This document shows, piece by piece, positions 543-43,583 of a stretch of 64,000 nt of DNA. The notes beneath the pieces were generated by a model, which saw only the letters and a list, made by a program, of their open reading frames with translations, did no database searches and was not told the origin of the DNA. The position numbers and the translations under genes were made by a program. Source of the DNA: Azolla caroliniana (taxonomy: Eukaryota > Plantae > Polypodiophyta); contig JBHGNT010000010.1 of assembly GCA_043228905.1 (NCBI GenBank), forward strand, positions 7,254,001 to 7,318,000, read 5' to 3'. How positions within the stretch are numbered: the stretch's first letter is position 1; each line of letters opens with the position of its first letter.

Positions 543-858
543 AGCATACAGCTCGCCAAGAACCCAGTGTTCCATGCTCGGGCAAAGCACATAGAAGTGC
601 ATTATCACTTTGTTTGTGAGCGGGTCCTGAGCGGTGAAGTTGAACTTCGGTATATTCACACGGATTGGCAAGTTGCCGACATCTTCACCAAGCCGCTCGG
701 ATCAGACATGTTGCAGCAATTTTTGGAGATGCTCGGCATTCAGCATCTCGATGTGCCACACTTGAGGGGGAGAACAAGAATGGGAACGTGTAAAGAAATG
801 AGGAGCAAGAGTGGTTGAGATGCAGCGGAAGGACTGTGTGTGCATGCGTACGTAAGGC

Positions 859-909
<51 letters not shown>

Positions 910-2678: not shown

Positions 2679-3952
2679 CCGTAATCCATCGTCGTACTAA
2701 CATACCAGAGTATCCTCTTAGCGCAATCGAGATGAAAGTTTCACAGATTCTGCGTGAATTGATTAAGTAGGCCAACCGAATAACTGGGGTTGGGTTGCGT
2801 AATGGTGAGATAGATTAAGTTGCCGATCCATTGACGGTACTGAGTTGACTCGCACTCGGCTATGCCGGAATCAGCATCAATCTTGAGATTACGATCAAGA
2901 GGTGTAGACATAGGTTTGCACTCGATCATTACGAACTTGTACAGAAGATTGAGAATGTAGTGTCGTTGAGAAATCATTATTTTGATTGGTGTCCGCATTA
3001 CTTCAATGCCAAGGAAGTAATGGAGCTCGTGCAGATCTTTCATTTCGAATCTGCTAGAAAGAAGTGATTTGACCTTGTTAATCTCGGCGAGATCCTTTCC
3101 TCTGATGACCAAATCATCCACGTAAAGGATGATGACAATCAGGCTATGCGACTCGTTTCGGATGTACAAAGAAGTATCAGATTTTGACATTCAAAATCTG
3201 ATCTGATGAAGATATTGCGTGATCTTCGAGTGCCACGCACGTGGTGCTTGTTTGAGGCCGTAGAGAGGCTTCTTGAGTTGGCACACGACATATGGATGAT
3301 TGGCGATTCAAAACCAGGTGGTTGGGGCATGTACACCTCCTCTTCCAATTCGTCTTGAAGAATGGCATTCTTGACGTCCATCTGGTGGAGGGGCCACCCT
3401 TTTGTTGCCGCAATTGCAATTACGGTCCGCACAGTTGTCATCATTGCCACCGGGGCAAAGGTCTCTTCGTAGTCTACGCCATGCATTTGTGCGTATCCTT
3501 TCGCAACGAGCCGTGCTTTAAAGCGATTTACGGATCTGTCAGCATTGTGTTTTACTTTGTAAATCCACCTGCAACGAATTGCTTACTTGTTTGGAGGGTG
3601 GGGAACGAGATCCCAAGTCTCATTTTTGCATAACGCTTCCATTTCCTCATTCATCACATCGACCCATCACGGATCCTTTACAGCTTCAGAAAGCGTCTCC
3701 AGCTCTTCTACTGACGTTACCTTCATCATGAACGCATAATGATACGCCATGTACTTGTCATAGCCGAAACGGCTTACGGGGTTCTTTCCACGGGTGGAAC
3801 GACGTAGCTCTGCATCCGTGGGGACTATCGCTTTCCTTGCTCCATTTCTGTGAGTGTCGAGACCTTCAAATTCCGTGTCGAGAGACTGAAGCACCTCAGT
3901 CTCTTCCTGATCTTCATATTCCCGCATTTTCGCCTTCCCTGTGTCCAGCTTC

Positions 3953-15525: not shown

Positions 15526-15564
15526 TGGTATCAAAGCGTGTGGTTTAGCATATCCACTAAGCCT

Positions 15565-16123
15565 TGTTGGGAAACATGTCCCTCCGGATGGGAAGAAAAG
15601 TACCGTTTTGGTGAGTATCTCGGCCGAGGCAAAAACCGAAATCGAATCGAAATCGTTTCGGAAGACTATAATTGTAAATAGTCAAAAATGCCTCCTGGGG
15701 AGCTATACTTGTAAATAGCCAGAAAGTTGCTTTGGTTTATAAGCAACTAGGGCAAACCTTATAGTTAGAGATAGAGAGGTGTTATTGATCATTATTGAAA
15801 AGTTAGAATGAGGTAGTTGCCTCTGTAACCATGAGTGAGAGAGTGAGAGTGTAACTCTGTAGCTGTCTGTCAGACGAAGGAGAACTCGAGGTCGCTGCCT
15901 CCCAGTTCCGTATTTGTACTTCCTCTCTACTATAGTGATTTGTTTTCTCTGGGTTTGTGGACATCCCGTGGTTTTTCCTATTTCGGGTTTTTCCACGTAA
16001 AATATCGATGTCTCTGTGTCTTTACGTTTTACTTGTCTTTGTACTAGATCTTGGTATCTGCACACGAATACGAACGTGAAACCGGTTGTGGCCGGCCGAT
16101 TCCTAACAAAGTGGTATCATAGC
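15565..16123 (+). mobile_element. Orphan copia 5' LTR plus PBS (internal region deleted)
   Basis: TGTTGGGAAA...CCTAACA (15565-16108); TGGTATCATAGC at 16112-16123; shares the GTGGTTTTTCC...TTCCACGTAAA motif with other copia LTRs in the window. Confidence 0.8.
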
Positions 16124-16845
16124 AACGAAAGACTCGTGTCAAATCTGCAAAGTCCTTTACCATCTTTTCAATTTGCATGTACTTATACGGCACATCATCA
16201 TACGTGGATCCCATGATCCAGAATACATATGGTAGTGTCAGCTATAAGCAATGTATAGTGCCTCTTAGGTAATATGTTAAGCATATTACCTACTTTCCCA
16301 TTAAATACACTATAATGCAACTATCGAAAAGGGTTGTCTCTATGCAGAAAACTTTTGTCAGTCTCTTAATCTTCGAGTACCTCCAACTCCTTTCCTTTCA
16401 CCATTCTCTTTTTATATTTTGCACGTTCCAAGTGCTTGGAATGCCTTCATTACTGTCTCCTGCCTTTTTGGAGCGAGGCGGTTTCTGCAATGATCGATTT
16501 GATTAGGAAATACCACAATGAAGAAATCAATTAAAAGTATAAAGACACATACCCATTCTCTAAATACAATAAATAATTCCTTCAATTCATTATATGATGA
16601 TGTCACATGGCACGCCTACTCTACTTCCTCCCAGGTTGGAAGGGACAATTTCTTCATCATTAATTCTTGGATCTTCATATGTACTTTATGGCTCAAAATC
16701 AAAGAAACCATTGGTCAATCATCATAACAAAACAACAAGCCAATCAAAGAAGAACCAATAATTAATACGTACTTCTTAAACTTAGTGACCATCTCTTCTA
16801 AACTGAATTCCTTAGCAGCCACTCGCAAAAGTACATATATAAGTA
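16124..16845 (-). pseudogene. 3' part of ParB-methyltransferase gene: linker plus N-terminus of a beta-class DNA amino-methyltransferase-like domain
   Basis: Continues the ORF 34620-35039 across the 17-bp TSD (LLIYVL|LRVAAKEFSLEEMVTKFK). GT-AG introns at 16692-16772 and 16485-16552 keep the frame. It then reads VFNGKVGNMLNILPKRHYTLLIAD-(1-nt frameshift)-PYVFWIMGSTYDDVPYKYMQIEKMVKDFADLT. Confidence 0.65.
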
Positions 16846-18789
16846 TGAGCAATTGATGGATAAGGATCAAGGATCCATTTCTTTCCGGTTTTAGCAACCA
16901 CTCTAACTGGTGCACTTCGTAAGTCTTGTAGATAATTGCAATCAAAGGTCTAAGATTGCAATCTATTGTTGTCTAGGTGAAACACCCTTAACAACCATCA
17001 ATCTATCATTTGCGAAGCATCCAAACCATAGATGTTCCTGCCTCGGTTGGAAGGTTGTTAAAAATGAAGAATATGTTACTGATAAGGTAGCCATCATTAT
17101 CTTGGCACCATGAACTGATTGTAGATGTACAAGTCGATCTTCTTGTGACATTTGTTGAAACTGAGTCCATGTTCTTACAGATGCAGCTGGCCCATTATCC
17201 AATTTACCCCAAGCAAGGTGAGGACGCAAGCCCAAGACTTTTCCTGCATTATCCCGAAATAGAGAATTGGCAAGCATAGGTTGATTAAGTAATGCATCCA
17301 AGGTAGAAGGTTTGTCCTTTAGCAAAAATGATTTAATTGCATCCCACGCTCTTATGATTTCTAGCAAAAATCTACTGGATGCAAGATTTCTCCTTGGTGT
17401 TTTCATGTCATTCAAGAACAACCACTTTAAAGAGGGTGACCATACTCCTCCTGTCTTAGGAGTTAATTGCATTAACTGATTTAAAAGCATTCCTTTCCAA
17501 GCTTCTAATCTTGGCAACAAGCCTCTGATAACAAACTTAGTCAAGAGAGCTCTTGACTGCATCAAAGGATCTATCAAACCCAACCCTCCATTAATTTTAG
17601 GTTGAATCAACACATTCCACGCAACTTTGGCTACTGTAGGAGAGCCATGTTTTCATCCCCAAAGGAAATTCCGGATCAAGCTTTGCACTTTTGTCATTGC
17701 TGATCTAGAAAATAGCCACACAGATGCTATAAACCACATTGATGCCAATAGTATTGTATTTGCTACTACAACGCGACCCCCAAAAGACAATTGTTGGGCA
17801 TCCCAATACAATAATTTACGTTTTATTGATAATAGAAACGGAGATAGCATTACTTCTGGCCTTAAATCTATTCCAACCATACATCCTAAATATCGAACTG
17901 GCTCACCACGATGAAGCCATCGGAAAGCATGACCTGGATACCACTCAGGATGATTTTCTGCACCAACCCAAAGGCCAACTGACTTATTCTAGTTAAGTGA
18001 TGCACCTGTAGCATCTTAGAAAACTTGCAAAGCATTTTGTACCCGACCGAGATTACTGATCTCCCCGTCAACATAGAGGGTTGTACCATCTGCAAATTCA
18101 ACATCCAGTACAGTGGATTGTGTAATAGATAATACTAATCCTTTGATACCAGTAGTTGATGATCTTAGGTAGGAGGACAAAGCTTCCCCAAACAAGATAA
18201 AAAGAAATGGGGCAAGAGGGCATCCTTGCCTAATAGACCTGGATATAGAAAATAGTGTCCCGTATTCTCCAGTAAACAAAACAGAACTAGAAGCATGCCT
18301 GTAAAGGGATGAAACACCTTTTATCCATGCGGCTGGAAAACCTAATCTTGATAGCACTGCCTCAAGAAAGTCCCAATCCACTTTATCATATGCCTTTTCA
18401 AAGTCAAGCACCAATACTGCAAGTTGTTGTTTCTGTTGCTGAGCTAATGCAACCATTTCCCAGAACAAAAAGATATTATCAAAAATACTTCAATCTTGTA
18501 GGAAGCCACATTGTGTATCATGAATAATAGACGGCAATACAGGTCGTAGTCCCCGGGGGCTTCACTGTCAAAACTTGTATGATAGCACGTGAGTTCATCA
18601 AAAGGGGTTTAATTTAATCAGTGAGATACATCATATATATATATAAGGGTATTAATAAAGATTTGGAAATATATTTACATAAGGGTATTATCAATTATGC
18701 TAGAAAAAAAATTTACATAAGCCCATGAAATATTAGATATTTCAATGAGATAGTAAAGAATATACAAACAATACTCAAATTTGGAGTAG

Positions 18790-20490
18790 CATACATACAT
18801 ACATATACCTACATTGAAAGATTACATCCATGAATATGTATATACATACATTACACCCATTTATACATGCATACTGACTGAACATAAATATATGTCGAAA
18901 TATGTATTACCATGTGTAAATATGTACATACACATACATACATGTATTACATACTACATACATATTAGAATCGGCCATATATATTGACATAGGAGTATAC
19001 ATAATACATACATAAAAATTACATATTACATATATACATACACATTCTCACAAACATATTTTATATATTACATATTACACACATATATTATTATATACAA
19101 ATGAAAATATACAAACCAAACACAAAAAATATGTATTACCATGTGCAAATATGTATTACCATGTGTAAATATGTACATACACATACATACATGTATTACA
19201 TACTACATACATATTAGAATCGGCCATATATATTGACATAGGAGTATACATAATACATACATAAAAATTACATATTACATATATACATACACATTCTCAC
19301 AAACATATTTTATATATTACATATTACACACATATATTATTATATACAAATGAAAATATACAAACCAAACACAAAAAAATAAAGTACATATTATATATAC
19401 ACATACATACACATATACACACATTCCATACATACAATACAATACAATATATACATACATACATACACACACACACGAACATACCACACATCACACATGC
19501 ATACCACATACATGCATATATACCTACATTCATATATTGCACATCACACATGCGTATATACCTGTACATTCAAACATTACATCCATGAATATGTATATAC
19601 ATACATTACACCCATTTATACATGCATAATGACTAAACATAAATATATGTACAAATATATATTACCATATGTAAATATGACATACACGTACATACATACA
19701 TTACATACTACATACATATTAGAATCAAGTTTCAACCATATATATTGACATACATATATACATGTAACATAATACATACAATAAAATTACATATGACATA
19801 CATACATACACAAATGCATATATACATACAAAACACAGAAAAATAAATTACATATTATATATATACACATACACATACATATTATTACCTAAGGCTACAT
19901 ATTATATGTATATAAATCTTCATACTTACAAACAAGTTACATATATTACATATATATAAACGTGCACACACACATAAATAAATTAGATATTACATAGCAT
20001 ATAATCGATACCTATTACACAATATACAAATTTACACATACATAAATTACATATATACATATATAGATATATTACATATGTAAATACATATTCCACATAT
20101 CACCGTATATATAGATTATACTGGACCATACAAACCACAATACTTACATACACACACACATTAGGTATATGTATACTTACACATACATTGGATATATACA
20201 TGCATATTACATACATATTACAAACATACATCCATATACTAACCATATACATACTAAACATGAAAATATCCCAAAAATATTCATACATTTACATACATAT
20301 GACCACATACACACATACATATACATACACATACATACATTGGATATATACATACATATTATGCACATATTACAAACACATTCATACTCATTGAATCATG
20401 TATATTGACAAATACATATATGCATACACATACATACATACATATTCCACATATCACCATATATATACATACATATGCCTACAATGTTAT
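18790..20490. repeat. (ACAT/AT)n low-complexity tract with ~250-bp tandem duplication
   Basis: 18901-19143 is repeated at ~19152-19380. Confidence 0.85.
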
Positions 20491-20496
20491 AAGTCT

Positions 20497-23400
20497 TGAT
20501 GGAAATAATCGTCACTTTCCAAACTTCACCTCTCGGCCACAACCAAGGAAACACACGAATCGTTGTTGCAGAAAATGGGAAATGCGAAAAATAGAGTGGA
20601 CACACGATTTAACGTGGAAAACCCTGTACGGGAAAAACCACGGGAGTACAAGACTCCGAACCAAAACTATGCACAGAGAAGTATACAATGGCGAGCTGCA
20701 AGGCGACGACCTTGAGCTCGCTGTCCTCGCCACAGGCGGCGGAAATACACAGAGGCGTCGACCTCTTCCTCTCTCACGCTCTATCTCTCTCACGGCTGCT
20801 CTCTCTCTCTCACGCTCTATCTCTCTCACGGTTGCTCTCTCTTCACTCCTCTCGAGTGGAAAAACAGAAAAATGAGTAGCAACAACTAAACTGTTTGCCC
20901 TAAGTCATATTTATACACATATGACTTTCGGGCTATTTACAAATATAGCCTAGAGGGCCCTTGGCAAACATATTCACAAATATGTCCCCGCATCCGGATC
21001 TCTCTCCGGGTACATTCGTCATCCGGCTCCGTAGCCGGGGTCTTCATCATCCGGCTCCGTAACCGGGTACTCTTCATCCGGCTTCATGCCGGGTACTCCT
21101 CATCCTCTGGTTCCGTAACCGTAACCGGGCTTGCCGTCATTCATCTCCGGACATCCCATCCGGAGGGACCGAAATCCCAACAAACTCCCCCTTCACTTCG
21201 GCATGGGATGTCTCTCCAATCCGATCCTCTTCCGGCATGCTTCCAGCTTGTCGGGTGTGAGCACCTTGGTCAGCATATCCGACCCGTTCTCGTCCGTGTG
21301 GATCTTCGTCAGTACGAACTCCTTGTCTTCTATCCTTTCCCGGATCCAGTGATATCTTCGCTGGATGTGCTTCGTCCGGGAGTGATAGGCCGCGTTCTTC
21401 GCAAGGTGGATTGCACTCTGACTGTCGCAGTAGAGTCAGTACTCCTCCTGTCGGATACCGAGCTCTCTAATGAAGTCCTTCATCCATATTATTTCCTTGC
21501 CGGCTTCAACAGCCGCCATGTACTCCGCCTCCGTGGTTGATAACGCAACCGTCTTCTGCAGCCTCGACTGCCATGAAACAGCTCCCCCTGCATACGTCAT
21601 CACATACCCTAATGTGGACCGGCTGGTATCTGCATCAGCCGACATATCCGAATCGGTAAAGCCGTCGAGTTCGGGCTTACCGGAGCCGAATCGGAGGCAC
21701 ACGTTTGTCGTGCCCTTCAGGTATCGGAGTATCCACTTGACCGCGTTCCAATGCTGTTTGCCGGGATTGCTCATGTACCGGCTCACCACTCCGACTGCAT
21801 ATCCTATGTCCGGTCTCGTACACACCATGGCGTACATCAAGCTCCCGACGGCTGAGGCATACGGCACTTTCATCATATCCTCCTTTTCAGCCTTTGTCTT
21901 GGGACTTTGCTTGTTGGACAGCTTGCAGTTTGCCGGGAGGGTCGATCCGACCGGCCTTGCTTCCGACATGTTGAACCGTTTAAGCACCTTTGTCATGTAC
22001 TTCTCCTGTGACAGCCACAACTGCTTCTTGCTCCGGTCCCGGATGATGTGCATCCCTAGTATTTGTCTCGCCGGACCCAAGTCCTTCATTGAGAAGGTTC
22101 GGTGAAGAGCCTTCTTCAGCATCCGTATCTTGACCTGGTCCCGTCCGACAATCAACATGTCGTCCACGTACAGGAGGAGTATTAGAAAGTCTCCTCCTTC
22201 GAACTTCTTCACAAACACGCAGTGGTCGGACTGCGTTTTGAGGTACCCTTCGTCGGTCATGAAGGAGTCGAACTTCCGGTACCATTGTCGGGGAGCCTGC
22301 TTCAGTCCGTAAAGGCTCTTCTTCAACCGGCATACCAGGTGCTCCTTCCCTTTCTTCTCGAATCCTTCCGGTTGCTGCATGTAGATCTCTTCTTCGAGGT
22401 CGTCGTGAAGGAATGCCGTCTTCACGTCCATCTGTTCTACCTCGAGGTCCATGCTTGCCGCTATGCTCAGCACCGTCCGGATGGAGGTCATCTTCACTAC
22501 CGGGGCAAATATTTCGTCGAAGTCGACGCCCTTCTTCTGCTGAAACCCCTTCACCACGATCCTGGCTTTGTATCTCGGGGGGTTTCCGGCATCTCTCGGT
22601 TTCAGCTTGAACACCCACTTGTTTCGAAGTGCCCGCTTTCCTTTCGGCAACTCCACAAGTTCATATGTGTGGTTCTCATGCAGGGAATCCATCTCGTCCT
22701 GCATGGCACTCAACCACCTGCGGCTCTGGGTGTCGTGCTTTGCTTCTTCAAAGCTCTCCGGCTCCCCCTCGTCGGTTAGCAGCACGTGCTCTGGTTCCGG
22801 AAATCTCCGGGGGGCCCTTCTCTCTCTTAGAGGATATCTCCGTTCCGGAGCTTCGGTAACCTGTTCTTCCGATTCTTCTTCTTCATCCGAATCCATTTCG
22901 GGATCGGGGCCGGTTCCGGTATCATTTTCATCTTCTTCGGCCGGTTCTGTTTCTTCACCGTCTTCGGCCGGATCCTCGAGTGCTAACCGGTCCCTTGCCG
23001 GTCGGGACTGCTCCTCGTAGAGTTGATCCTCACCGGTCGACTTGGAGCTCTTCATCTTCTTCTCCGACTCCCAGTCGGCGAGTGTCTTGTCCTCCATGAA
23101 GATGATGTCTCGACTCCGGAATGTCTTCTTGTCGACCGGGTCCCATACTCGGTAGCCGAACTCGTCGTCGCCGTAACCGAGGAATATGCATGGCCGGGTC
23201 TTTGGATCTAGCTTTCCTCTCCGGTCCTTTGCCACATGCACGTATGCGAGACACCCGAACACCTTCAGATGCCGGTAAGATACTTCCCTACCGGTCCACA
23301 CTCTCTGCGGCGTGTCTCCGTCCAAAGGTACTGAGGGTGATCGGTTTATCACATATGTCGCCGTCGACATTGCCTCAGCCCAAAACCCCTTGGGTAATTT

Positions 23401-25983
23401 CGCATGCGCCAGCATACTCCGGACCCTCTCCATTATGGTCCGGTTCATCCTCTCGGCCAGCCCGTTCAGTTCCGGCGTCTTCGGCACAGTAAACTCGAGC
23501 CGGATTCCCATCGAACGGCAATACTCCGCGAACTGCCCCCGGCATTCCCCTCCGTTATCCGCTCGCATCGCTTTCAGCTTCTTGCCGGATTCCCTTTCCA
23601 CTCTCGCGTGGAGTTCTTTGAAGACGCACAACACTTGGTCCTTTGTCTTCAACGGTGCCGACCACAGCTTCCGGCTGTGATCATCAATGAATGTTACGAA
23701 GTACTGGGCTCCGCCATGTGACTTCGTTTCTACCTGACACACATCAGTGTGCACCAACTCCAATGGTGCGCTACGTCTCGTCGGTGGCCTTGAATGGAAG
23801 GAGGTTCGGTTCTGCTTACCGGCCAGGCAATCGGTGCACTTCTCCAGGTGCACATGCTTCACTGGAATGAGGTTGTCTTCTGCAAGCCTCTTCATCCCCT
23901 TCTCACTCATGTGGCACAGTCTCTTGTGCCACAGCTCACCGGCAGTGTCGGCTGCCACGTTCAACTCTTCCGGACACAACCAGGCATTCATAAGGTACAG
24001 TGTGTTGACTTTCCGGGCCCGAGCCACTATCAGGCTCCCCTTGCTGAACTTCATTACGCCGTTCCGGATGCTACCTGTGTAGCCTTCATCGTCTAGCCTC
24101 CCGGCTGAAATCAGGTTCAATCGAACCTCCGGAACGTGTCGGACATCCTTCAGCAACATTTTGCATCCGGTCGGGGTTGTCAACCACACGTCTCCTATGC
24201 CGGCAATCCGGCACGTACCTTCATTTCCCATCCGAACACAGCCATGCTCACCGGCTGTGTAGGATGAGAAGTATCTTCTCTCCGGGGTCAGGTGGAACGA
24301 TGCTCCGGAATCGACCACCCAGGTCGTCTCATCGCCGGCAATGTTTAGTTCACCTTCTTCGGTGATGAGCATGATTTCTTCCTCACTTGCCGCGAGTGCC
24401 GTCGTTCCTTTCCGGTCCTGCCCTCGCCGATCCAGACCTCTCCGGTCCGTGGCTCCCCGGTATGCACCGTTTCTCTCCGGTGACCTCTTCGAATCGGTGT
24501 CGTCGGCTCCGTTGTCCTTTCGGTAATGCCGACAATTCTTCCGGAAGTGCCCTGGCTTCCCACAGTGGAAACATATGGGTCTTCCTCTTGACTGCGACCG
24601 GGTCCCAGACTTCTCCCGTCTTTGCGGACTCCGGTTCCATTGTCTTCCCCGTTCCGATTCGGTAAGCAGCGCCTTCGAGTCGGAGGCCGGTTCTTTATCT
24701 CTCCGACGCGCTTCTTCGTTCAAAATACTTGTCTTTACCGTTTGTAGGGACAAGTTATCTTCGGTGCAGGAGGTGCTGAGAGTCACCACCAAATTCTCCC
24801 AGCTTTCCGGCAATGTACACATCAGAATGATGGCTTGCATTGCATCCTCCAGCGGGAACTTGATCGCCGCAAGCTGGTTCACGAATCCCATGAACGTGCT
24901 TACGTGTTCCACCATACTCTCGCCGTCCCGGTACTTGAGGTTCACTATCTTCCTCATCAGGGAGGTCCGGTTCAACGCATTCTTCCTCTCGTAGAGGCCC
25001 GACAGCTTCCGCCACATCTCATATGTGTTGGTGTCGTTCGCCACATGTTGTAGAACGCTCACGTCTACGTATTGCCGAATGGTTGCAACGGCTTTCCGGT
25101 TCAGAAGCCTCCATTCCGACTCAAGTACTCCCTTCGGTATTTCCGACCTGTCAATCGGTTCGTACAGGTCCCGAACAATCAGAAGATCCTCCATCTTGAT
25201 CTTCCAGTCGGCGTAATTCTGCGCATTTAGCACCATCATCCCCGGCTGCCCGCTGCCGCCGCCTTCCATTTTCTGCAGCAGCTCGCTCTGATACCAAATT
25301 GATGGAAATAATCGTCACTTTCCAAACTTCACCTCTCGGCCACAACCAAGGAAACACACGAATCGTTGTTGCAGAAAATGGGAAATGCGAAAAATAGAGT
25401 GGACACACGATTTAACGTGGAAAACCCTGTACGGGAAAAACCACGGGAGTACAAGACTCCGAACCAAAACTATGCACAGAGAAGTATACAAGGGCGAGCT
25501 GCAAGGCGACGACCTTGAGCTCGCTGTCCTCGCCACAGGCGGCGGAAATACACAGAGGCGTCGACCTCTTCCTCTCTCACGCTCTATCTCTCTCACGGCT
25601 GCTCTCTCTCTCACGCTCTATCTCTCTCACAGCTGCTCTCTCTTCACTCCTCTCGAGTGGAAAAACAGAAAAATGAGTAGCAACAACTAAACTGTTTGCC
25701 CTAAGTCATATTTATACACATATGACTTTCGGGCTATTTACAAATATAGCCTAGAGGGCCCTTGGCAAACATATTCACAAATATGTCCCCGCATCCGGAT
25801 CTCTCTCCGGGTACATTCGTCATCCGGCTCCGTAGCCGGGGTCTTCATCATCCGGCTCCGTAACCGGGTACTCTTCATCCGGCTTCATGCCGGGTACTCC
25901 TCATCCTCTGGTTCCGTAACCGTAACCGGGCTTGCCGTCATTCATCTCCGGACATCCCATCCGGAGGGACCGAAATCCCAACA
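20497..25983 (-). mobile_element. Young Ty1/copia element (Tnt1/Tork-like)
   Basis: LTRs 20497-21182 and 25300-25983 differ by about 3 substitutions and one CT unit by eye. PBS TGGTATCAGAGC (25285-25296, minus); PPT TGAAGGGGGAGTT next to 21183. No matching TSD (AGTCT vs ATATA). Confidence 0.97.
21193..25269 (-). CDS. Copia gag-pol polyprotein, single premature stop at 21436-21438
   Basis: 1277-aa ORF: CFHCGKPGHFRKNC, WVVDSGASFH, integrase (HTD...ADNGGE...NGLAERMNRT), RT (QMDVKTAFL, LYVDDML), RNase H. After the TGA the frame stays open (LYCDSQSAIHLAKN...HPMPK*) to 21193. Confidence 0.95.
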
Positions 25984-26487
25984 ATATACATATATACATA
26001 CATTACATACATGCATACACATAAATACGTTACATACACATACATACGTACATTACATATGTACATACATATCATCACAAACTACAATACATACATATAT
26101 ACATAAATATTACGAACAAACATCCACACACTCATGTATGCATATATGCATATGCCATACACTATACACATACAAACATACATACATTACATATTACATA
26201 TATACATAATACACGTATGTACATTCATGCATGTACATACATACATTGCATATGCATATATTACAATCACACATTCATATACATTGAGTCATGTACATTG
26301 ACATATGGATATATGCATACACCTACACACACACATGCACACACACACACACACACACACATACATACATACATACATACATACATACATACATACACAC
26401 ACACACAACACACACAACACACACACACATACATCATACATACATACACACACACACACACATACATACATACATACATACATACAT

Positions 26488-26533
<46 letters not shown>

Positions 26534-29400
26534 TACATATGGATATATGCATACACATACATACATTACATATGTATACACATATGTACATTTGTACATA
26601 GACATACCTATATTCATTTATACATTACTACATATACATACATTAGATATATACATAAATATTATGCACATATTACAATCACACATCCATACACATTGAA
26701 TCATGTACATTGTCATATGGATATATGAATACACATATGTACATTTGTACATAGACATACATATATTCATTTATACATTGCTACATATACATACATTAGA
26801 TATATACATAAATATTATGCACATATTACAATCACACATCCATACACATTGAATCATGTACATTGTCATATGGATATATGAATACACATACATACACAGA
26901 TAAATTACATATGTATATATGCATACACATATGTACATTCATACATGGACATACATATATTCATTTATATATTGCTACATATACATTCACATATATACAT
27001 TAGATATATACATAGATATTATGTACATATTACAATCACACATTCATATACATTGAATCATGTACATTTACATACACAGATAAATTACATATATGCATAC
27101 ACATATGTACATTCGTACATGGACATACATACTCATACATTACATACATGACATATGCATACACATATGTACATTTGTACATGAATGTCTGAATGTTATG
27201 TTTAGTATGTATGTATGTGCACGTAATGTATGCATGTATGAATGAATGAATATATATATATGTAATGTATGCATAAAATATGTATGCTTGCATGAATAAA
27301 CATGAATGAATGGTTGTTCCCCCCGCCCCCCCCAATCACATAGAATTTAAATCTTGTAAAAATGGTTACACTAATGACAGGATATCTTCTTTAAAAATAA
27401 AAATAATAAAAAACATGAATGAATGGATATATGAATGTACATATGTGTGTATATGTAATATGTAATGTATGTATATTTGTATGTGTATGCATATATGTGT
27501 GTGGATGTTTGTTTGTAATATGTATGTATGTGTATGTAAAATTAATGTACATATATATGAGGGGTATGAATGTTTAAGTTAAACTATAAAAGCGATAAGT
27601 TATAAAAGTGAAAACATTCTAAAGAAAAAATAAAAATAATGTGGGAGAGGGGTTTGAATGAGAATAGGAAAAAATGGGTAAGGGGTAGGGCTAGAAATAG
27701 GAGAAAGTAGGGGAGGGATAGGGCTGAAAATAGGAGAAAGTTGGGGAGGGGCAAGGCTACCATGTGTAGTCCCGGACATATGAACTACAAGAGAAAGAAA
27801 GAGATATAAAAGGGAATGCATCGCTACTAAATGTAGTCTCATGCTTACAAACAATATATATTATACATACACATACATACATATTACAACAAACATCCAC
27901 ACACACATATATGTATTATGCATACACATACACATACAAATATACATACATTACATATTACATATATACACATATGTACATTCATATATTCATTCATTCA
28001 TGTTTATTCATGCAAGCATACATTACGTGCACATACATACATACATACATACATACATACATACATTCGTTCATACTAAACATAATATTCAAACATTCAT
28101 GTTTTTTTAAATTTAGATTTTTGCCGCCTCCTCCTTTGCTTTACCTCCTCGTCTCTCCTCATTGTTGTCGCCTCTTCTCCCCTTGTTGCTTCTGTCCTCG
28201 TTTTGCCGCCTCTGTTCTCGTTTTGCTGCCGCCGCCGCTCGCCTTGTCGTGCTGCTTTTGCCCACCATTATTCTCTGTCGGGGCTGCCACAAGTACTCTA
28301 CAAATATTTTACAAGTACACATAAGTACAAACATCATACATAAACCAACACATAAATTCTTAGACTTACATACACTCACGTACATACATACATACATAAA
28401 CACACACACACACACACACACACACATAACGTATACAATCATACACACAGGCCATACATACAATATATACAATAAACGAAATTAATACAATACAATACAA
28501 TATGTACATACATACACACATACCTATATACACTGACTTACATACACATTTACACATAACACATACATACAATACAATATGTACACACACACACACACAA
28601 ACATAACACACATCACACATGCTATACATACACAAATAAATACAATACAATACAATATGTACATACATATTACACACATACCTATATACACATGCAATAC
28701 AATACCTATACACACACACACACACACACACAACACACATGCATACCACATACAAACATATATGATGTATGGAACATACATACACACACACAAACATAAA
28801 ACACAACAGACATGCATACCACATACAAACATATATGATGTATGGAACATACATACACACACACAAACATAAAACACAACAGACATGCATACCACATAGA
28901 AACATATATGATGTATGGAACATACATACACACACACAAACATAAAACACAACAGACATGCATACCACATAGAAACATATATGATGTATGGAACATACAT
29001 ACATACGCACATACAAACATAACAAACAACACACATGCATACCACATACAAACATAACAAACAACACACATGCATACCACATACAAACATAACAAACAAC
29101 ACACATGCATACCACATACAAACATAACAAACAACACACATGCATACCACATACAAACATATATGATGTATGGAACATACATACACACACACAAACATAA
29201 AACACAATAGACATGCATACCACATATAAACATATATGATGTATGGAACATACATACATACGCACACACAAACATAACAAACAACACACATGCATACCAC
29301 ATACAAACATATATGATGTATGGAACATACATACACACAAATCACACATGAATACCACATTCACAATGCACACATACACACATACACACATATATATGAT
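25984..29400. repeat. Microsatellite/minisatellite tracts in the TIR element, with internal inverted repeats
   Basis: (CA)n/(ACAT)n tracts; ~70-bp unit array at 28735-29340; 27177-27535 is inverted relative to 27860-28100. Confidence 0.85.
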
Positions 29401-29447
29401 GTATGGTTATATGAAACGTGATAGGTGGGTCATTCTATTTGTAGATA

Positions 29448-29651
29448 ATGGATGAAGAATCTATTATTGAAGTGTTTGAACATGAGAGGGATGATGAAGA
29501 TAAACCTTTGGGCATTGTAAGTGTGAGAGGAACTCTTACATATGCAAAGATCCGAGTCGAAATAATTGAGGACGGTATATTTTATGAACCATTTTCCTTT
29601 GTGTACACAAAAAATAATATTTTGAATGGGAAACAAGAAGAGAAAAAATAA
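29448..29651 (+). pseudogene. Captured or residual coding exon of unknown function in the TIR element
   Basis: Complex-sequence ORF (MDEESIIEVFEH...PLGIVSVRGTLTYAKIRVEIIEDG...FSFV...KQEEKK) immediately after an acceptor-like TTTGTAG, amid low-complexity DNA. Confidence 0.4.
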
Positions 29652-32600
29652 TGTTACGACTTCATATGAGTCTATCCATGAAACTAAACATAAGGTTAAT
29701 TTGTTAGTAATTTCATTATTGATATGCATTTTGGATTGTTTCACATCTGCTCTTTGAGATATATATATCAAGTTCAAGATTGTTTTATTGTAAATTACAT
29801 TTTTTTTATTATCACGCTATATTCTTCATATGTCTCAATAAACTAAAAAAAAACTTATATGCGGCTTATGTATGTTATACCTCTAGTGTTTTTGGTAATG
29901 TTTCCTAATTGTGTGTGCATTACTTTGTACTTTACATATTGTGTTTTCAATCTATGTGGCACTTGATGAAGCATTTCTAGGAATTGCATATGATGTTTAA
30001 TATTCATTCATAATTTTGCGAGTCATCAATTGTACAGGTGGTCATCGATCCTTTCTAGGATTGGAAACTATGTGTGCATGTATATTTTATATGTAAGGGT
30101 ATTTAAAATGGGTGGTTATCAAAAAATATATTGGTAGTAAGGGGTATTTTTATTAATCTTTTTTCTACAAAAGGGTCACTAAAATAGTAAAAACCATATG
30201 TATAAGGGGTTTATAAATGATGTCATGAACGCACGTGATACAACCGTCTTATATATAGTGGAGTCTCCGGGTCGTAGTCTAACTGCAATAGTTTTTGCCA
30301 CTATCTTATACACAACATTAAGCAATGTTATTGGCCGCCACTTGGAGACTTCATCACATTGAGCATCTGATTTAGGAATCATATATATGATTCCTTCTGT
30401 CTATTCCTCAGGCATATTACCCGTTGAGAATATTAAATTAACTGCTCTAGTAATGAGAGAACCAATAAAATCCCAATAATGCAAATAAAAGCCAATTCCT
30501 ATTCCATCTTTTCCGGGACAAACATCCTTACCTAAGGATTTAACCGCAGCAAATACCTCTTGAGATGTAAACGGTTGTAATAACTGAGAGGCCATTACAT
30601 CTGTAACCTTCTATTCAATAGTTGCAAGAACAACTTGTTGCTTATAAAAATTATCTGTCGTAAAAGATTCAACAGACAATAAGTTATGATAATAATCCGA
30701 GACTATACTTCGCATCTTAGAGCCATCTGATGAATAGGATCCATCAAGCCGCTTCAAAGAAGTAATAGAAAGAGGTCTAGCTTTTCGTTTAAATTGATTA
30801 AAGAATTCCTTATTGACCCGATCTTGCCTTTGAGACCAGCGAGCAACACTACGATGGTAAAAGAAACTTGAGTGTGCTTCCTGTTTTTCCTTTAGACTGC
30901 TTTTTACTTGCTACAAATCACAACATAATATAGATGAAGTTGGATATCTTTCCAAAAGTTGTTGTAATGCTGCCAAAGCACGACGCAAGTTAGCAATCTC
31001 TGAATTGTAGCGATAAACAGATGCTGAAACTCTTTCTGTGAATAGAATCTTTGTATCGAGTATGGCATGAGTCATATTGCTAAGCAAACAGTCATCTGAG
31101 AAATTGTATTTTGACCATATTTGTATGATTGACATCCAATGACTATCCTCAGATAAAATTGCAGGAGGGATACGCAATTGTGTCGAGTATAGCCTCTTAG
31201 TAAATGTAACCTGTAACTTTAGAGGGTTGTGGTCAGAGATAACTGATCCTGGAATAATTCCTATGGATCCACCTGCTTCCCAAACAATGCTACTAGCATA
31301 AAATCTATCTAGTCGAGACAAATTTGTAGCAACCAAGCTTCCATCTGATTTAGAAAACTGAAGGAATCCTTGTATACGTGAAAATGAATGCACCTTCCAT
31401 AAATCTAGCAACCCATAAGTAAAACAAAAGTAATCCCAACACTTAGCTTCCCATCCTGAAATTGTAGTAGTTATACTTCCCAGCCTATCAGCAGCATCCT
31501 CAATCATATTAAAGTCGCCTCCTACCAACCAACAATCCGCTAAACTCACATAATCAGAAAGAGATAGCCATAACTTTGCCCTTTCGGCCGCAAAATTTGG
31601 GGCATAGAGATTCATAAGGCCAACCTTTTGGGATCTTATTTTTACAATCAGGAATTGTGCCCCTTTATTCATAATAGTAGCAGCTAACACAATGATAGAC
31701 TACAAATGTTGTTTAATTGCAATGCATAGTCCAGCTTGACGGCCAGTGGGGCCAAAAACGGGAATCCAGAAGTGAGTCCACCGTCCTAGTAAAACAGATC
31801 CATACTTCCGAATTCTATCCATACATAAGTGATGCTCTTGTAAAAAAAGAATATCAATATTTCCTACATTAGCAGTACCTAAATCTGCGCATAAGAGTCC
31901 TTTAAATCTACGAAAAGCCTGACCACCCAAGCCTTGCACATTCCAAGAAAGAAGATGTAAGGTGTCCATCTTACACAGATTTTATTGGTGTCCTTTTCTC
32001 AAGGAGAGCATCCTGGCGGCCTTTCTGGGCACCCTCCTAGGCTCTTGCTTGTCGTTTTTAAAGCAGATAGTTCCCTGCATGCTTATGTACCCTATGATCC
32101 TTAACTTGCTTTTGAGGGGTATGAAGTGTCAAGGTATCTTGTGAAACTATAAATTGATATCCATCACAAGAGTGTTTATCTACTCCTTGAGCCATTTCAA
32201 CCCCCATCATATTTGATTGACTAGAAATAGATTTTCCTACAAGCTTATCAAAGGGAACTGAACTACCAGAAACACCGATATCGATTTGTTGGTCTGCTTC
32301 GATTCCCATAACACTTGGAGGCATTTCCACATCTGTAATATCTTGAGCAGAGACAACTTTTCCTTTTAATTTTTTAGATGAATCCAAATTAACATTTGGT
32401 GTCAACTGCTCGTTCTCAACACTTTTCAATGGTGGTTGGCCTACTATTAACCTTGGGAAAGTCTCAGGCAACTTAGTAGAAAGTAAGTCTGTCTTTTGGG
32501 AAAAATGGGTTGATGGTTGATCTGACATATTCACTTCATGTGACCAATCCTCTTCTACTTGGAGAGTAGAATATCTATTCTGTAAGGGGGGGAATTCCTT

Positions 32601-34637
32601 TAAATTATTGATTGACACTTTATGACGCTTGTCATAAGATAATTGTGAAGATACTTTCCTATGACCGACCTCAGTCCAACCCTTAGATCTAGCATGAGAT
32701 GGGACTATAGTTGTATTGGGTACATGCTTATCTATCTCTTTATTATATTTAGGGCAATTTTTTGCCAAATGACCAAATCCAAAACACCGAAAACACTGAT
32801 TTGGCAAACCCCTATACAAAATTCTCTGAGAATAAGATTCTTGTCTGGAGTCAAGCAGATTAGGCAATAAGATATTTGAGGGCAAAATTGTGGACTTAGA
32901 AATCAAAAGTTTTGTTGATGTAGCTCCCATATATTTATCGTTGTTCTGACGAGATTTATCATAAGTTTCCAAGACTGTGCCAATAGTACTGGCAATTAGA
33001 TGCACAAATGGCACCCACTCTTTACGTAGATTGGGAAACACTGCCACACATGTATTATATGAATCTAAATCATGAAGTACCTGATTTGCGGAGAAGTTGT
33101 GAGTCCATTTGTGGAAGAATACCCATCCTCCCTTGATTGCCATTGTTTTCTTCTCTAGCAAGATTGGTACCATCCGTTCAAGCTCGAACTCCACTTGATA
33201 ATAGTTCCGACCAAGCATTTGAATATCCGTGATGTTGTCAATATCTTGTTTTAAAGAAGCTTGTAATAACAATCGAAGATCAGCACGCTGAGGACGAATG
33301 CCCAAAACTTGCGCAATGATAATCCTCTTCTCTAGACGTTGAATCTCTCTTACAATCTGGGCTCTATCTTGTTTTGACAACATAAGCTCTACTACGCTGT
33401 CTGAAATAGGTGTAATATACAGGTTAGCTACACGGGAGCCCCGGTTAGGCTGTTCGCAACAACGCGGCAATTGCTCCTGGTTCTCCGTTGCATTGAAGTC
33501 GACCGGGTTTATGGAGGAGGTTGAGAGGCTAGTCGCAGCAATTTGATTGGTTGTAGCAGGTAAGTAGAAGGGGACAAACTGCTTTTCTGCATCTACTTTG
33601 GTATAAACGGAAGCCCCTACAGATCTTGTTGCAAGATTAACATGGGATCCAGGGGGTTGGCTTTGGTCACACTCCTTGGGGGAAAAGATCGTAAAGGTCC
33701 CCTTTTTTTAGTACTCAGTAAAACTTGGAAGATCATTACTGCTCTCTCATAATGGAAAGATACCAGCAGCTCAGAAACATTGGACCAATTGGGGTGTTTC
33801 CACTTTGCATTTGAGAACCTATTGGAAATGGATATGGTCATTCAAGGGGCCAACTAAATTTATTCTCTTTCGATGGTTATTAGTGCATCTAGCTCTACCA
33901 GTTGGTCATACATTGAAAGGGAATGTGACACCCAATTTGCGGCAATGTGCCATTTGCCATGAACCTCAAGAGACTACCAAGCATGTCTTATGGTCTTGTT
34001 CTTTTGCTCAACAAGTATGGAAGAAAGTCGTGTCTTTATTCCTAACAATAAATGTAGGTTGCTTATTCTCATGGGGATCAACGATGTGGGGAGTATTACA
34101 CTCCGGTTTAATGTTGTATGAGGCAAACGATGTTCATGAGGCAATGACAATACATAATGGAAGATTGATATTAGTTAGTCCTTTCCAGCAACCTCGAAAG
34201 CAGGTGCGATCCGTCCAAATTTGGAAAACTGTCCACAATAACATTATGGGTATTATGGAAATATCGATGTAAACGACTTTAAGATGGGGTAGACATTCAT
34301 GTCTCAGATGTGTTGTTTGAGTTATGGGAGAACTTGTTGGCTGTAGTCCGTGGTCAGTAGGACAATATGCAGGGTTCCCCAGATACTATGATCAAGAAAA
34401 GGAAAAAGCTTCTTCACTTATGGAAAAAGGTGCCCCTGTTTACAATGGTAGCTCAAGAGCCTCAATGGCAATATCGACTTCCATGGACTCTTTGAATATC
34501 ACAAATGTAAACATCCTCGTATTTTATATCAGTGTATAAAGAAAGTTGTAACCTTCTTGGTTGCTAGGTTCAAGTTGTAGCATTCGGGCGTTTTGTTCTT
34601 AATACTATTGAAGAAAATCTTATATAATAATAATAAT

Positions 34638-35885
34638 AAGTACATATATAAGTAATCTGTTGTCTTTGATGCCCTGCAACGACCGCCAAGAAAGCAACTT
34701 CATATCTTCTGGTAGCTCCTCGATGTTCAAGTCACTTTTACGTGATGTTGAATTTATCTCCACTTGGGGATCTACCTTTGCCTTCTTTGCTTGTTTTCCT
34801 TTCACCTCTTTCCGATCCCACATGCTAAATATTTTATCTTGCAAGTCCCATACCTCCCTTGTTCTAAAGGCTAGCTGAAACCACAAGTCATATTTTCTCA
34901 ATCCTTCAAACTTCGTGCTTTCATCAACTGCTATACCCACCTCCAACAGACATTGTCGACCCAGTCTAGGATGTAGTCTAGGACCATATCTTTGTAATGC
35001 ATCGAGGTACTCGTGATGAAAAAAATCTGATTCGCTCAATACAAGACATCTTTTGTCTGTAATGATTATCGTTATTATGGTCCCAAGCTAACAGCTTAGC
35101 CTCTTCATGAGTAAGACCTACATAGACTTTACGTTCTATGTACTTGAAGAATGGGGTCAGAGAATATTCTTTTATGAGTTGATGTCGGGCTTCGGCCGAA
35201 TAGGATCCTCCAATAACATAGTAAGTATGGTCATCAACAAAACTATACTTGAAATTTACAGTTGTGGGGCATTGGTCAGGATCCACCATTGCTAGGAATG
35301 GTACCAATTGCGTGCAGATTAATCTTCATTTTTCTCTTGAGGTTTTGCACGTGCACAATATGGGGCTCTCGGATTTCCAATGGGTGCCAGTGCCTTATGA
35401 TGAACATGGAGTGCGGGTCGGTATACCGCTCGAATACGGAGCATATCCACTCTCGATAACAATGGCTCCAGTGCCTCACAGCAAACATGGACTGTGGGTC
35501 AGTATACCGCTCGAATACGGAGCATGTCCACTCTCGATAGCAATGCCCCCCCCTTCCGGAGCAAGGAGTGTGTACGAATTTACTAACGTCCTTTGAATCG
35601 AACAGATAGGCAAATGGAAAAGTTGGCCTTTACGCAACAGTTTCGTCTTAACAATGTTTTCTGTTATTTGATTCTGCTCGGACGTCAATATGCCTGATGA
35701 CATCTTTTTCCTCCAAGAGGAAAAACTTCGACTTGTTGCTCCTCTTCCATGAACTCCAAGCCCTCGGGGTCGTCATCATCAGGCTTAGCTCATTTTTGGT
35801 ACTTCTTATGTTCCGGTTTGGACTTCCGAGACGGTTTTGGAGGTGTCTTAGCTTCGGTGAGCTTTGGAGTTGTTTAACTTCTTAA
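34638..35885 (-). pseudogene. 5' part of ParB/Srx-like plus methyltransferase gene
   Basis: Frameshifted fragments LFHLPICSIQR..HPLEIREPHIVHVQNLKRKM..VPFLAMVD..YYVIGGSYSAEARHQL..VYVGLTHEEAKLLAWDHN, matching the ParB/Srx pattern (P-h-h-h...Y-h-h-x-G-x-H-x-x-x-A). Confidence 0.65.
35387..35548. repeat. 81-bp tandem duplication within a candidate intron (35394-35587) of the ParB gene
   Basis: ccagtgcc...tataccgctcgaatacggagca...ccactctcgata occurs at 35387 and 35468. Confidence 0.85.
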
Positions 35886-36311
35886 GAGTGATAATAACAA
35901 TGAGGGGAAGACCTTTCCTTATATAGTAGATTAAAAAAATTATAAATTATAAAAAAAATGTTAAACAATTAGTAAAAAATTCTTTAAAATTAGAAAAAAA
36001 TAGGAAACAATAGAAACAAATATTCGATGATAAATATTTGTATTTTATGGAGATATATATGGTGATTACCAAATATGTGGTTTAGTTTCTATTGACGCTA
36101 CTGCTTTTTAACCTTCTTGATCTCAATGAAAATAAGCAAGATGTCCTCAACTTCTACTAGAATTTCCTTATTTTCTGTGAACCCTTTTACATTATCTAAT
36201 AACTCCTTATTCTCAATTGATGAGTACAACCACCAAGGTGTTCAAAACGGCTAATGTCAAGGGTCAAACTCACTTTTTTCGATCAAGCCTGTCAACTCTT
36301 GTGGTTTCCAA

Positions 36312-38674
36312 ATGAGTAAAAGGTGTGCAAAATGTGATAGGGTTGATACATCTAGTGATGAGGCTTGCGTAACTAAACCTCTCATTTTCAAAAGAATTCC
36401 TCGACAAGTTAGTGTCAAAAGATTGACTTCGGATCGTCAAATTGCATTAGATACAAACAACTCATGTTGTGGAAGTCTATGTCTTTCTAAATTTGGCAAG
36501 ATAAATCTAACGATATTAAGAGAAAAGTACTTATCACTTAATGGTGAAAAACAAGATACTTATTTCACATATGCACCTAATTTTGGATCACACAATAGCG
36601 GGTAATTCAACACATGTTGACTATTACCTTACATTTTGTACTAAATGTTATCGAGTTGCTTTCAAAATTGCTTATAGCATTGGTAATACGAGGCTACATT
36701 GAATTCAACAACGTCTAGTAAAGGGATCGTGGGTGCCTTTTGACAAGAATACAGTTGGATCTAAGGGTCTGATTGGGCATCGTGCTATTAGGTGGATGGA
36801 GATATATTTCTCAAAGCAATGTGATATTATGCCTACAACTGGAAGATTACATTTGTCTAATAACTTTACTCGTCATGAGGTATACCAAGCATATAAGGAT
36901 GACATGTTTTTAGAAAGTGCACCTTATGTACAACATCGACATTTCAATCTATTATGGAGGTTGCAGTTCAACAATGTGGTTATACCTCATAAGGTTCAGA
37001 TGGGTGTTTGTTCAGTTTGTGCAAGACTAAAAAAAGCATGGCAAAGAGTGGGAGAAATTATGAAGAAATGAAGAATTATAAGAATCTATTAAAAGAACAT
37101 CGTAATAGTCAAGTCTTGGAACATTCAAAAGCTATGCACCAACGACAAAAAGCGCTTCAATCATTGGAAAAGTATATGTGCTTGATTATAGATGGCATGG
37201 ATCAAAAGAAGGCTTGTTTGCCACACTTTCAAAGGTTGCCTAAGGACATTGGTGATGAATGACTTGTTCAAATGCATTTAGTAGGTTGCTTATCGTACTG
37301 TCAGACAATAAGGCATCAAGTCTTCTTAACTTATCCTAATATCCACAATGACCCTAGTCTTATAGTGATAGTCATACAAAGAGTGTTACAGTCTTGGCAA
37401 GGTATCCTCCTGCCAATTCTATACGTGCAATTTGACAACACAGCCAGATAAAACAAAAACTCGATTGTTTTCGGTTATTTAAGCATGCTAGTAGAGGGGC
37501 ATATTTAAAAAGATTAAGGTGAACTTCTTACTAGTTGGTCATACCCATGATCATATAGATCAGATGTTTAGTAAATTCTAAAAGAAATTAGCAAGATGTG
37601 ATGCTTTTACGCTTCTGGCACTATCAAAATTGATCATAGAAGCTTATATCCCAAAGCCAAAAGTACAACATCTGAATGAGGTGTATGATTTTAAACGCTT
37701 CTGCATGGATGGTGATGGGACTCAAAGTAACGTTCTTGCACCACTAAATAATATAAGTTTTAACCACATCTTCCTCATAAAAAGAAGTTCTACGAGCCAC
37801 AACACAACGTTGTTGTATGCCAAACAATACTCATCTTGTTCACAATGGGAACCACAACAGGGTTGTAGGCTCTTATTGCGTTTTCCAGATGCAGAAATCC
37901 ATGGTGTAGAACAAATGTTGTATGAAGACCATAAAAAACTGGCTTTCGGTATTTCAATTAATGAGCAAAAGATATATTGGATGCAATGGCTTGAAGAGAA
38001 ACAAAAAAAATATTGAGTGCACCAAGAAGTATGCTAGTGATCAAAATGTTGACTGGTGGGGTACTTTTTTCAACCATCAACATACGATTTTGGATAACCA
38101 CATTGCCGAAAACTAGCCACTCCAATATCTGTTCACTTGGAATATTAGTGTAGGATCCATGGTGTCCATGACTCGTCATCGGTCATTAGAAAATATTGAA
38201 CGTAATAATCTAGTTCGCCCATGATAGAGAGATATTTACATGGGACCAAGGATATCGCATACTGTAGAGGCAAGATGGCAAGGCAATTTGCATGAGCTAC
38301 AAGTTGGTATGTTGGTTGCAACATTAACTGGTGTTGATGAGTTGGGCCATCCCTTTTGGATTGCTAAAATTATTGAAATAATGAAATATGAACAAGGAAA
38401 TCAAGTTAAATCCACTTTGGTTCATTGGTATCACAACTCTTCCCCAAATGCATTTATTGGAAAGTACGCTTTAGAGATGGTTAAGGATGTCGGAGGCACA
38501 AACAGAAAGCGAAGAAGAAAGAATCTACCAAGCACGTCTACTCTTACACTAGATACTATAGACGTCCTAGTGTATGACTTCTCCTTCACCAAAACAGGAC
38601 ATCTAAGACAGAGCACCATCAAGATAATAAAAGAGAAGATCCCAAATGGGGCTCCAAACACAACACAAAGATGA
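36312..38674 (+). pseudogene. Sola-type DDD DNA transposase, frameshifted
   Basis: Motifs CCGSLCL, C..AFKIAYSIGNTRL, DIMP...LHL, LWR..F.NV.I...CSVC, LIIDGMDQKK (D 37191), LYVQFDNTAR*NKN (D 37434), FLLVGHTHDHIDQMFS (D 37558). Confidence 0.8.
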
Positions 38675-43235: not shown

Positions 43236-43583
43236 TTAGAATTAGAATTAGAATTTTTATCGTCCATAAAGAGGCCAATTTTGACCTATGGGACCAAAGA
43301 ATACATGTGTTCTTGATATATGTCTCCTTCCTAAGAAGGGGTATTCATATGTTGAAGCACAAAGTCTCTATGTGTTAATAAAGCATACACATATGAACTC
43401 AACCTTCTAGGTGGTGTCTTAAGTATGGATCTTAAGTTATCACTCCCTCTTAGTGTGTCAACATATCTTGAACGAATTGCACTATATGTCGAGCATGTGA
43501 AGAGCAAGTGACATTCATCCTCTACCATGCCTTCATTGCATACTTTACATGTCTTCAAATTCGTTACATTTTGATATCATGAG
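43236..43583 (-). mobile_element. 3' fragment of RTE-like LINE inserted in copia gag-protease linker
   Basis: CCHC motif CKVCNEGMVEDECHLLFTC; (TTCTAA)3 tail; copia frame KGTSA|IATSEEE is restored on removal. Confidence 0.85.

What the first reader, a model, noticed from the sequence alone, without database searches (positions are those of the whole stretch)
16124..16330. Beta-class amino-methyltransferase signature (G-x-x-x-x-x-L-x-x-L-P ... LLIAD[I/L]PY)
Seen: minus strand reads VFNGKVGNMLNILPKRHYTLLIAD, then GAC ACT A CCA TAT (one extra base), then PY. Established: beta-class MTases begin h-h-x-GD-x-x-x-x-L-x-x-L-P-x-x-x-x-D-L-I-h-x-DPPY, with catalytic motif IV first and the SAM-binding motif C-terminal. 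A DIPY variant is recalled from phage enzymes. Inference: the ancestral motif was DIPY or DLPY. The SAM-binding half is missing here because an LTR+PBS truncates the gene at ~16123.
Basis: partly seen in the sequence, partly recalled or inferred. Interest (0 to 1): 0.8.

Follow-up and report, generated by a model that had tools for sequence, protein, structure and literature searches.

The report
Dead transposon-borne ParB DNA methyltransferase fragment
This is a broken piece of a gene that a multi-copy cut-and-paste transposon of a plant (likely a fern) carries beside its transposase; intact relatives encode a protein predicted to be a bacterial-type DNA methyltransferase fused to a ParB-like domain, which likely binds palindromes inside the element and likely marks the element's own DNA, a design already proposed for a brown-algal transposon.

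Summary
Observation confirmed. The minus strand reads LLIAD-[one extra base]-PY. Relatives read DIPY (38 of 49 loci covering the motif, none DLPY). It is exon 3 of a five-exon gene: ParB-like domain plus beta-class amino-methyltransferase, 936 aa in intact locus L012, with DIPY, NPYQKP and DLFSGTG in beta order. The gene sits head-to-head with a DUF7869 transposase inside a 7.6-kb element with terminal inverted repeats. The window holds a dead copy: transposase 36123-38677, terminal repeat 38747-38783, ParB part 35855-34638, a 17.8-kb LINE nest with a 17-nt target duplication, then 16845-16138. The SAM-binding exons and left terminal repeat are absent from the window; the LTR faces the gene with its primer-binding site, so deletion is likelier than insertion. 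Between subfamilies dN/dS is 0.03-0.07 in the methyltransferase, and a 23-bp palindrome lies upstream in 12 of 12 long-enough loci. Methylation is untested; 6mA self-marking is my best guess. The same design is in print for Ectocarpus Sola1-1_Ec32; I found no land-plant report. The scan found this family before on other DNA of this genome, repeatedly.

The parts
16138..16484 (-). Exon 3 of the ParB-methyltransferase gene, truncated at 16138; holds the N-terminal half of the beta-class MTase; 13-nt deletion near 16434, two stops, 1-nt insertion
16227..16239 (-). Catalytic motif IV (DIPY in relatives), frameshifted by one extra base at 16235
16553..16691 (-). Exon 2 (linker), with a stop
16773..16845 (-). 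3' end of exon 1, downstream of the LINE insertion
16829..16845 (.). Left copy of the 17-nt target-site duplication of the LINE
16846..34637 (.). Nested insertion splitting exon 1: LINE with inverted 5' part, satellites, young copia element (not part of the transposon)
34638..34654 (.). Right copy of the 17-nt target-site duplication
34638..35855 (-). Exon 1, ParB-like domain (residues 154-497 of the L012 protein, 54-88% identity), frameshifted; residues 1-153 and the palindrome array are missing
36123..38677 (+). DUF7869 DDD-type transposase pseudogene, head-to-head with the ParB-MTase gene
38747..38783 (.). Surviving terminal inverted repeat (92% to the L012 repeat)
15565..16123 (+). LTR (15565 to about 16107) and primer-binding site (16112-16123) abutting the truncation; not part of the transposon

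Best explanation
The finding is the frameshifted catalytic motif in a dead copy of the second gene of a terminal-inverted-repeat DNA transposon of a likely fern, whose intact relatives encode a predicted ParB-like domain fused to a predicted beta-class amino-methyltransferase that likely docks on palindromes inside the element and likely writes N6-methyladenine on the element's own DNA. Shown: the gene structure, motif order, association with the terminal repeats and transposase, purifying selection, the palindrome, and the decay of this copy (about 0.95). Predicted: the two folds. Inferred: palindrome binding by the ParB-like domain, SAM-dependent methylation, adenine as the target, and a benefit to the element such as keeping its divergent promoter active against host 5mC silencing. 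The confidence below is for the mechanism.
For: Loci align collinearly to 35850-34638 and then 16840-16138. L012 splices through four GT-AG introns of 68-90 nt to an open 936-aa frame with IGGSH at 311, DIPY at 655, NPYQKP at 789 and DLFSGTG at 814. Pfam N6_N4_Mtase hits exon 4 and covers profile 2-213 in relative P0136, whose DPPY aligns with DIPY. A DIPY-bearing homolog (P0190, 39% to the window peptide) folds at pLDDT 84.7 and matches CcrM best, E 2.1e-16. The N-terminal domain of L012 (pLDDT 87.4) matches Myxococcus ParB best, E 3.7e-6. L012 has terminal repeats at both ends and an open 897-codon DUF7869 frame (E 1.7e-52). 10 of 12 loci with 1150 nt or more downstream end in the repeat. 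dN/dS is 0.027-0.073 in the 6 of 14 MTase comparisons between loci where dS was not saturated. The palindrome is present in 12 of 12 loci reaching 1125 nt upstream, up to 4 copies. Asp in motif IV points to adenine: DPPY for N6A and SPPY for N4C (PMC8885841 passage).
Against: No methylation, expression or binding data. DIPY departs from DPPY; related proteins vary here (DLPY, DVPY, DFPY, DAPY) and some lose the aromatic residue (P0161, P0175). The fold matches N4C enzymes almost as well (rotifer N4CMT E 2.4e-13). The ParB match is partial (TM 0.25-0.38 of the query) and the conserved motif is GGxH, without the arginine patch recalled for CTP-binding ParB. The transposase was seen head-to-head in only 2 of 53 loci (98% identical to each other) plus the window, because most contigs are short. 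The dN estimate kept only well-aligned codons, which biases it low. The window peptide alone has no Pfam hit.
Confidence: 0.55

Rival explanations
1. The intact protein is a DNA-binding regulator or anti-silencing factor whose methyltransferase fold is weak or inactive; it binds the palindromes and controls transcription or transpososome assembly.
For: Non-canonical DIPY and degenerate motif IV in distant relatives; DIRS1-borne adenine MTase domains are described as likely inactive (PMC4738411 passage).
Against: Asp, Pro-Tyr, motif X and motif I are all kept in the young copies, and both MTase halves are under strong purifying selection.
Confidence: 0.2
2. The enzyme is active and self-targeting but writes N4-methylcytosine, which could pre-empt host 5mC at the same cytosines.
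For: N4C enzymes are among the top fold matches; 4mC writers of bacterial type exist in Marchantia and rotifers.
Against: Those enzymes have SPPY; 0 of 49 loci here have Ser at that position.
Confidence: 0.15
3. The enzyme is active but not directed at the element: it methylates host DNA broadly, or RNA, and the palindromes serve the transposase.
For: No substrate data; METTL3-type RNA methyltransferases appear lower among the fold matches (E about 3e-8); single Ginkgo gene models could be domesticated.
Against: DNA enzymes rank well above RNA enzymes; ParB-like fusion with adjacent inverted-repeat arrays recurs in Bostrychia Plavaka elements.
Confidence: 0.07
4. The gene is neutral captured cargo, as in Pack-type elements.
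For: The window copy and many low-coverage loci are decayed.
Against: Synonymous sites are saturated between subfamilies while dN stays at 0.04-0.10 and introns are kept.
Confidence: 0.03

Closest known systems
Sola1-1_Ec32 of Ectocarpus (PMC12477816; passages read)
   Same: DNA transposon with an accessory gene on the strand opposite the transposase, predicted ParB-like domain plus N4C/N6A methyltransferase; authors propose it binds and modifies its own element.
   Different: 21.5 kb and 1104 aa in a brown alga, against 7.6 kb and 936 aa here; no palindrome is mentioned in its main text ('palindrom' 0 hits); sequence kinship not tested, supplements not read.
Plavaka accessory genes PAG2 and PAG3 of Bostrychia (10.1101/2025.02.11.637652; passages)
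   Same: Transposon-borne PF01555 methylase; ParB-like gene beside tandem arrays of inverted repeats; same best ParB structure (7BNR).
   Different: Methylase is fused to SET and ParB to a 2OG oxygenase, in separate genes, in EnSpm-lineage elements.
Beta-class bacterial amino-methyltransferases (CcrM, M.RsrI, M.MboIIA, M.BceJIV)
   Same: Motif order IV then X then I, and predicted fold.
   Different: DIPY instead of DPPY, N-terminal ParB-like fusion, spliceosomal introns, no restriction partner.
Marchantia DN4MT1 and bdelloid N4CMT (passages)
   Same: Bacterial-type permuted amino-methyltransferases in eukaryotes.
   Different: Host genes with SPPY that write 4mC; 'ParB' has 0 hits in either main text; not transposon cargo.
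VANDAL/VANC of Arabidopsis (PMC5735166; abstract and outline)
   Same: Transposon-encoded protein acting on repeated motifs in its own element against silencing (analogy).
   Different: VANC removes 5mC, is in Mutator-type elements, and no homology was tested.

Membership tests
Beta-class amino-methyltransferase (PF01555) | Motif IV (D/N/S-P-P-Y/F) N-terminal to the SAM-binding motif I | tested here: met
   Order met in L012: DIPY 655, DLFSGTG 814; first Pro replaced by Ile, so a variant. In the window copy motif IV is frameshifted and motif I is absent.
Beta-class amino-methyltransferase (PF01555) | Pfam N6_N4_Mtase above the curated cut-off | tested here: met
   Met for exon 4 of L012 and L003 (38.1 and 34.4 bits, cut-off 26.7) and 9 of 11 relatives. 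Not met for the window peptide alone.
Beta-class amino-methyltransferase (PF01555) | Permuted methyltransferase fold | tested here: met
   Model of homolog P0190, not of the window peptide: top matches CcrM, M.BceJIV, N4CMT.
Beta-class amino-methyltransferase (PF01555) | SAM-dependent N6A or N4C methylation of DNA | not testable with these tools
   Needs an enzyme assay or modification-aware reads.
ParB/Sulfiredoxin-fold proteins | ParB N-terminal fold | tested here: met
   14 matches at E 0.001 or better; all those listed are ParB or Noc. No Pfam ParB hit; DUF6551 below cut-off.
CTP-clamp ParB proteins | Arginine-patch CTP-binding motif (recalled as GxxR/GERR) | tested here: not met
   Family motif is GGxH(S/T/G); filed as ParB-like only.
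TIR DNA transposon | Terminal inverted repeats enclosing a transposase | tested here: met
   L012 180-7773 with repeats at both ends; one repeat survives in the window.
Sola superfamily | DDD transposase | tested here: inconclusive
   Candidate Asp motifs begin at 360, 440 and 478 of the L012 frame; Pfam DUF7869; no Sola reference was compared; no solved relative.
Sola superfamily | 4-bp target-site duplication (PMC10741241 passage) | tested here: inconclusive
   The only two-ended locus (L012, a 111x contig) shows no duplication; its flanks likely come from different copies.
ParB-MTase accessory genes of algal transposons (Sola1-1_Ec32 type) | ParB-like plus amino-MTase fusion opposite the transposase inside a DNA transposon | tested here: met
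   Architecture met.
ParB-MTase accessory genes of algal transposons (Sola1-1_Ec32 type) | Common ancestry with the Ectocarpus protein | not tested
   The Ectocarpus sequence was not fetched.

The most novel reading that the evidence does not exclude
Transposons across streptophytes (relatives named from Chara, Riccia, Ceratopteris, Adiantum and Ginkgo) carry a self-addressed epigenetic device: a ParB-like domain that loads on parS-like palindrome arrays and a DIPY methyltransferase that writes 6mA (or 4mC) on the element to counter host silencing, giving ferns a transposon-confined, enzyme-written amino-methyl mark.
Probability: 0.4. Interest if true: 0.8.

Novelty: new member of a known kind. 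Interest (0 to 1): 0.5.

Why it matters
Enzymatic 6mA in eukaryotic DNA is disputed outside a few lineages, and ParB-methyltransferase cargo of transposons is in print, as far as I found, only as a prediction in algae. A young, high-copy plant family with an intact enzyme and an obvious candidate target palindrome makes self-methylation by a transposon directly testable. This window copy itself is dead and matters mainly as a marker of the family and its age.

Tried and rejected
Pfam on the 65-aa window peptide: 0 families. Search of the window for exons 4-5 and the left terminal repeat: none, so a simple nested insertion with the rest inside this window is rejected; the rest could lie beyond the window. 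Clean LTR insertion at the break: disfavoured because the primer-binding side faces the gene. The flank right of 38783 matches nothing else in the window or loci, so insertion of the transposon into the LTR element's leader could not be shown. A MULE-like frame in L003 lies outside the terminal repeat and is not part of the element. Target-site duplication of the transposon: not determinable. No whole genome is held, so no copy count in this genome. No RNA holder listed. The original Sola paper was not held. DUF7869: 0 papers. No earlier scan notes by sequence or nearby. dN/dS of the window copy in the MTase region: too few codons.

Full report
Setting. The window is transposon-rich land-plant DNA with copia elements, LINEs, satellites and an AP2-like exon. 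No whole genome is held. The closest named relative of the gene studied is from the fern Ceratopteris richardii (72% over 324 residues), so the host is likely a fern (inference).

Observation. The minus strand gives VFNGKVGNMLNILPKRHYTLLIAD in one frame and PY onward in the next. Read with X at the break, the 65-aa peptide has no Pfam hit but finds 24 proteins among 28 candidates at 70-82% identity, most with DIPY. Of 53 loci fetched, 49 cover the motif: 38 DIPY, 3 NIPY, 8 other or broken, none DLPY. The extra base is at 16235. Contigs from two coded runs cover both the motif and the junction with the LTR without gaps; one may be the window's own source.

The intact gene. In L012 the gene has five exons and four GT-AG introns of 82, 68, 89 and 90 nt, and gives an open 936-aa frame (start codon and splice sites chosen by inspection, not from transcripts). 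It has IGGSH at 311, DIPY at 655, NPYQKP at 789 and DLFSGTG at 814. Motif X is intact in 25 of 35 covering loci and motif I in 18 of 34. Exon 4 passes the Pfam N6_N4_Mtase cut-off; exon 3 does not hit. Relative P0136 matches profile positions 2-213 and its DPPY aligns with DIPY. A single-piece homolog, P0190 (39% to the window peptide over 59 residues), folds at pLDDT 84.7 and matches CcrM (E 2.1e-16), M.BceJIV and the rotifer N4C enzyme (E 2.4e-13), so the fold does not separate 6mA from 4mC. The N-terminal part of L012 folds at pLDDT 87.4 and matches ParB and Noc, best E 3.7e-6 but with low whole-query TM scores. Its conserved motif is GGxH, without the arginine patch that I recall for CTP-binding ParB.

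The element. L012 is bounded by inverted repeats of about 37 nt (180 to 7773) and holds an open 897-codon frame with DUF7869 (E 1.7e-52), head-to-head with the ParB-MTase gene. The repeat follows the MTase gene in 10 of 12 loci with enough downstream sequence. A full transposase was seen in 2 of 53 loci, with partial hits in 2 more. Contig names give coverage up to 297x against about 2x for many others, which suggests young high-copy subfamilies. A 23-bp palindrome with an 11-bp arm lies 1.1-1.5 kb upstream of residue 300 in 12 of 12 loci that reach that far, in 1-4 copies; the other 7 of 19 loci covering residue 300 are too short. Seven locus pairs were compared in each MTase half: dS was saturated in 8 of 14 comparisons and dN/dS was 0.027-0.073 in the other 6 (only well-aligned codons kept). 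Named relatives come from Ginkgo, Chara braunii, Riccia sorocarpa, Adiantum nelumboides and, more distantly, a sea cucumber; I did not see their genomic context.

The window copy. Right to left: terminal repeat 38747-38783; transposase pseudogene 36123-38677; a shortened intergenic region lacking the palindrome (0 hits) and residues 1-153; ParB part 35855-34638 with frameshifts and a foreign 81-nt tandem pair; a 17.8-kb insertion bounded by a 17-nt duplication at 34638-34654 and 16829-16845; the end of exon 1, exon 2 and part of exon 3 down to 16138. Exons 4-5 and the left repeat are not in the window. An LTR (15565 to about 16107) and its primer-binding site (16112-16123) lie 14 nt from the break, internal side toward the gene. 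An inserted LTR element would present its outer end, so a deletion or rearrangement is likelier (inference). This copy cannot make the protein.

Mechanism. Most likely the intact protein binds the palindrome array through its ParB-like domain and methylates adenine near the divergent promoter, helping the element stay active (0.55). Rivals: inactive or weak enzyme acting as a regulator (0.2), 4mC writer (0.15), non-self substrate (0.07), neutral cargo (0.03). Asp at motif IV is the only evidence for adenine (PMC8885841 passage). No activity, binding or expression was shown.

What is known. [quoted passage not shown] The Bostrychia preprint (passages) reports inverted-repeat arrays beside a ParB-like accessory gene. 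PMC4738411 (passages) lists phage ParB-terminase MTases and algal ParB-HTH fusions, with no fern entry in its main text. Also seen as passages: the Marchantia preprint, PMC12730594, PMC12695648, PMC4455052, PMC9477723, PMC10741241; abstract and outline: PMC5735166. Nine paper searches gave no report of this element in land plants. Iyer 2011, the Cell 2025 version of the Marchantia paper, Repbase entries and all supplements were not seen and could hold one. I reached the transposon reading before looking at the scan's notes; those notes gave the Ectocarpus, palindrome, Sola and VANC leads. 219 of 266 notes on this genome fit a look-up for these words; they are unchecked and are not support.

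Verdict. A real feature, correctly read by the first stage. It is a dead fragment of an interesting family that is a land-plant member of a kind proposed in algae in 2025. Interest 0.5; 0.8 if self-methylation is shown.

Noticed in passing
window 16846-34637: The LINE that splits the gene looks near full length with an inverted 5' part: ORF1 33707-32058, endonuclease 31699-30911 and RT 18489-16963 on the minus strand, then zf-RVT 33712-34272 and a (TAA)n tail on the plus strand, inside one 17-nt duplication; this fits twin priming.
   Followed up: partly
window 20496-25984: Young copia element, LTRs 99.3% identical, open 1292-codon frame on the minus strand, inserted in a CA/TA-rich satellite.
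   Followed up: no
window 35387-35548: Two 81-nt tandem units (84% alike) inserted in the ParB exon, absent from relatives; origin unknown.
   Followed up: no
window 15526-16123: Two primer-binding sites about 590 nt apart; the second LTR starts 27 nt after the first site, a nested LTR arrangement.
   Followed up: partly
   Followed up: no
window 54649-55557: First exon of an AP2/TOE-like gene ending in the start of an AP2 domain (Pfam E 0.16, below cut-off).
   Followed up: no
window 41771-47646: Older copia element on the plus strand, 80% similar to the one at 20496-25984, with an internal 322-nt tandem duplication at 46301-46943.
   Followed up: no
P0246 (Holothuria leucospilota): A sea cucumber protein aligns over both the ParB-like and MTase parts (23% over 629 columns, E 2e-29); its cluster representative lacks the aromatic residue of motif IV.
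   Followed up: no
L025 1599-1881: A copy of the gene with an internal inversion spanning the exon 1 end and exon 2.
   Followed up: no
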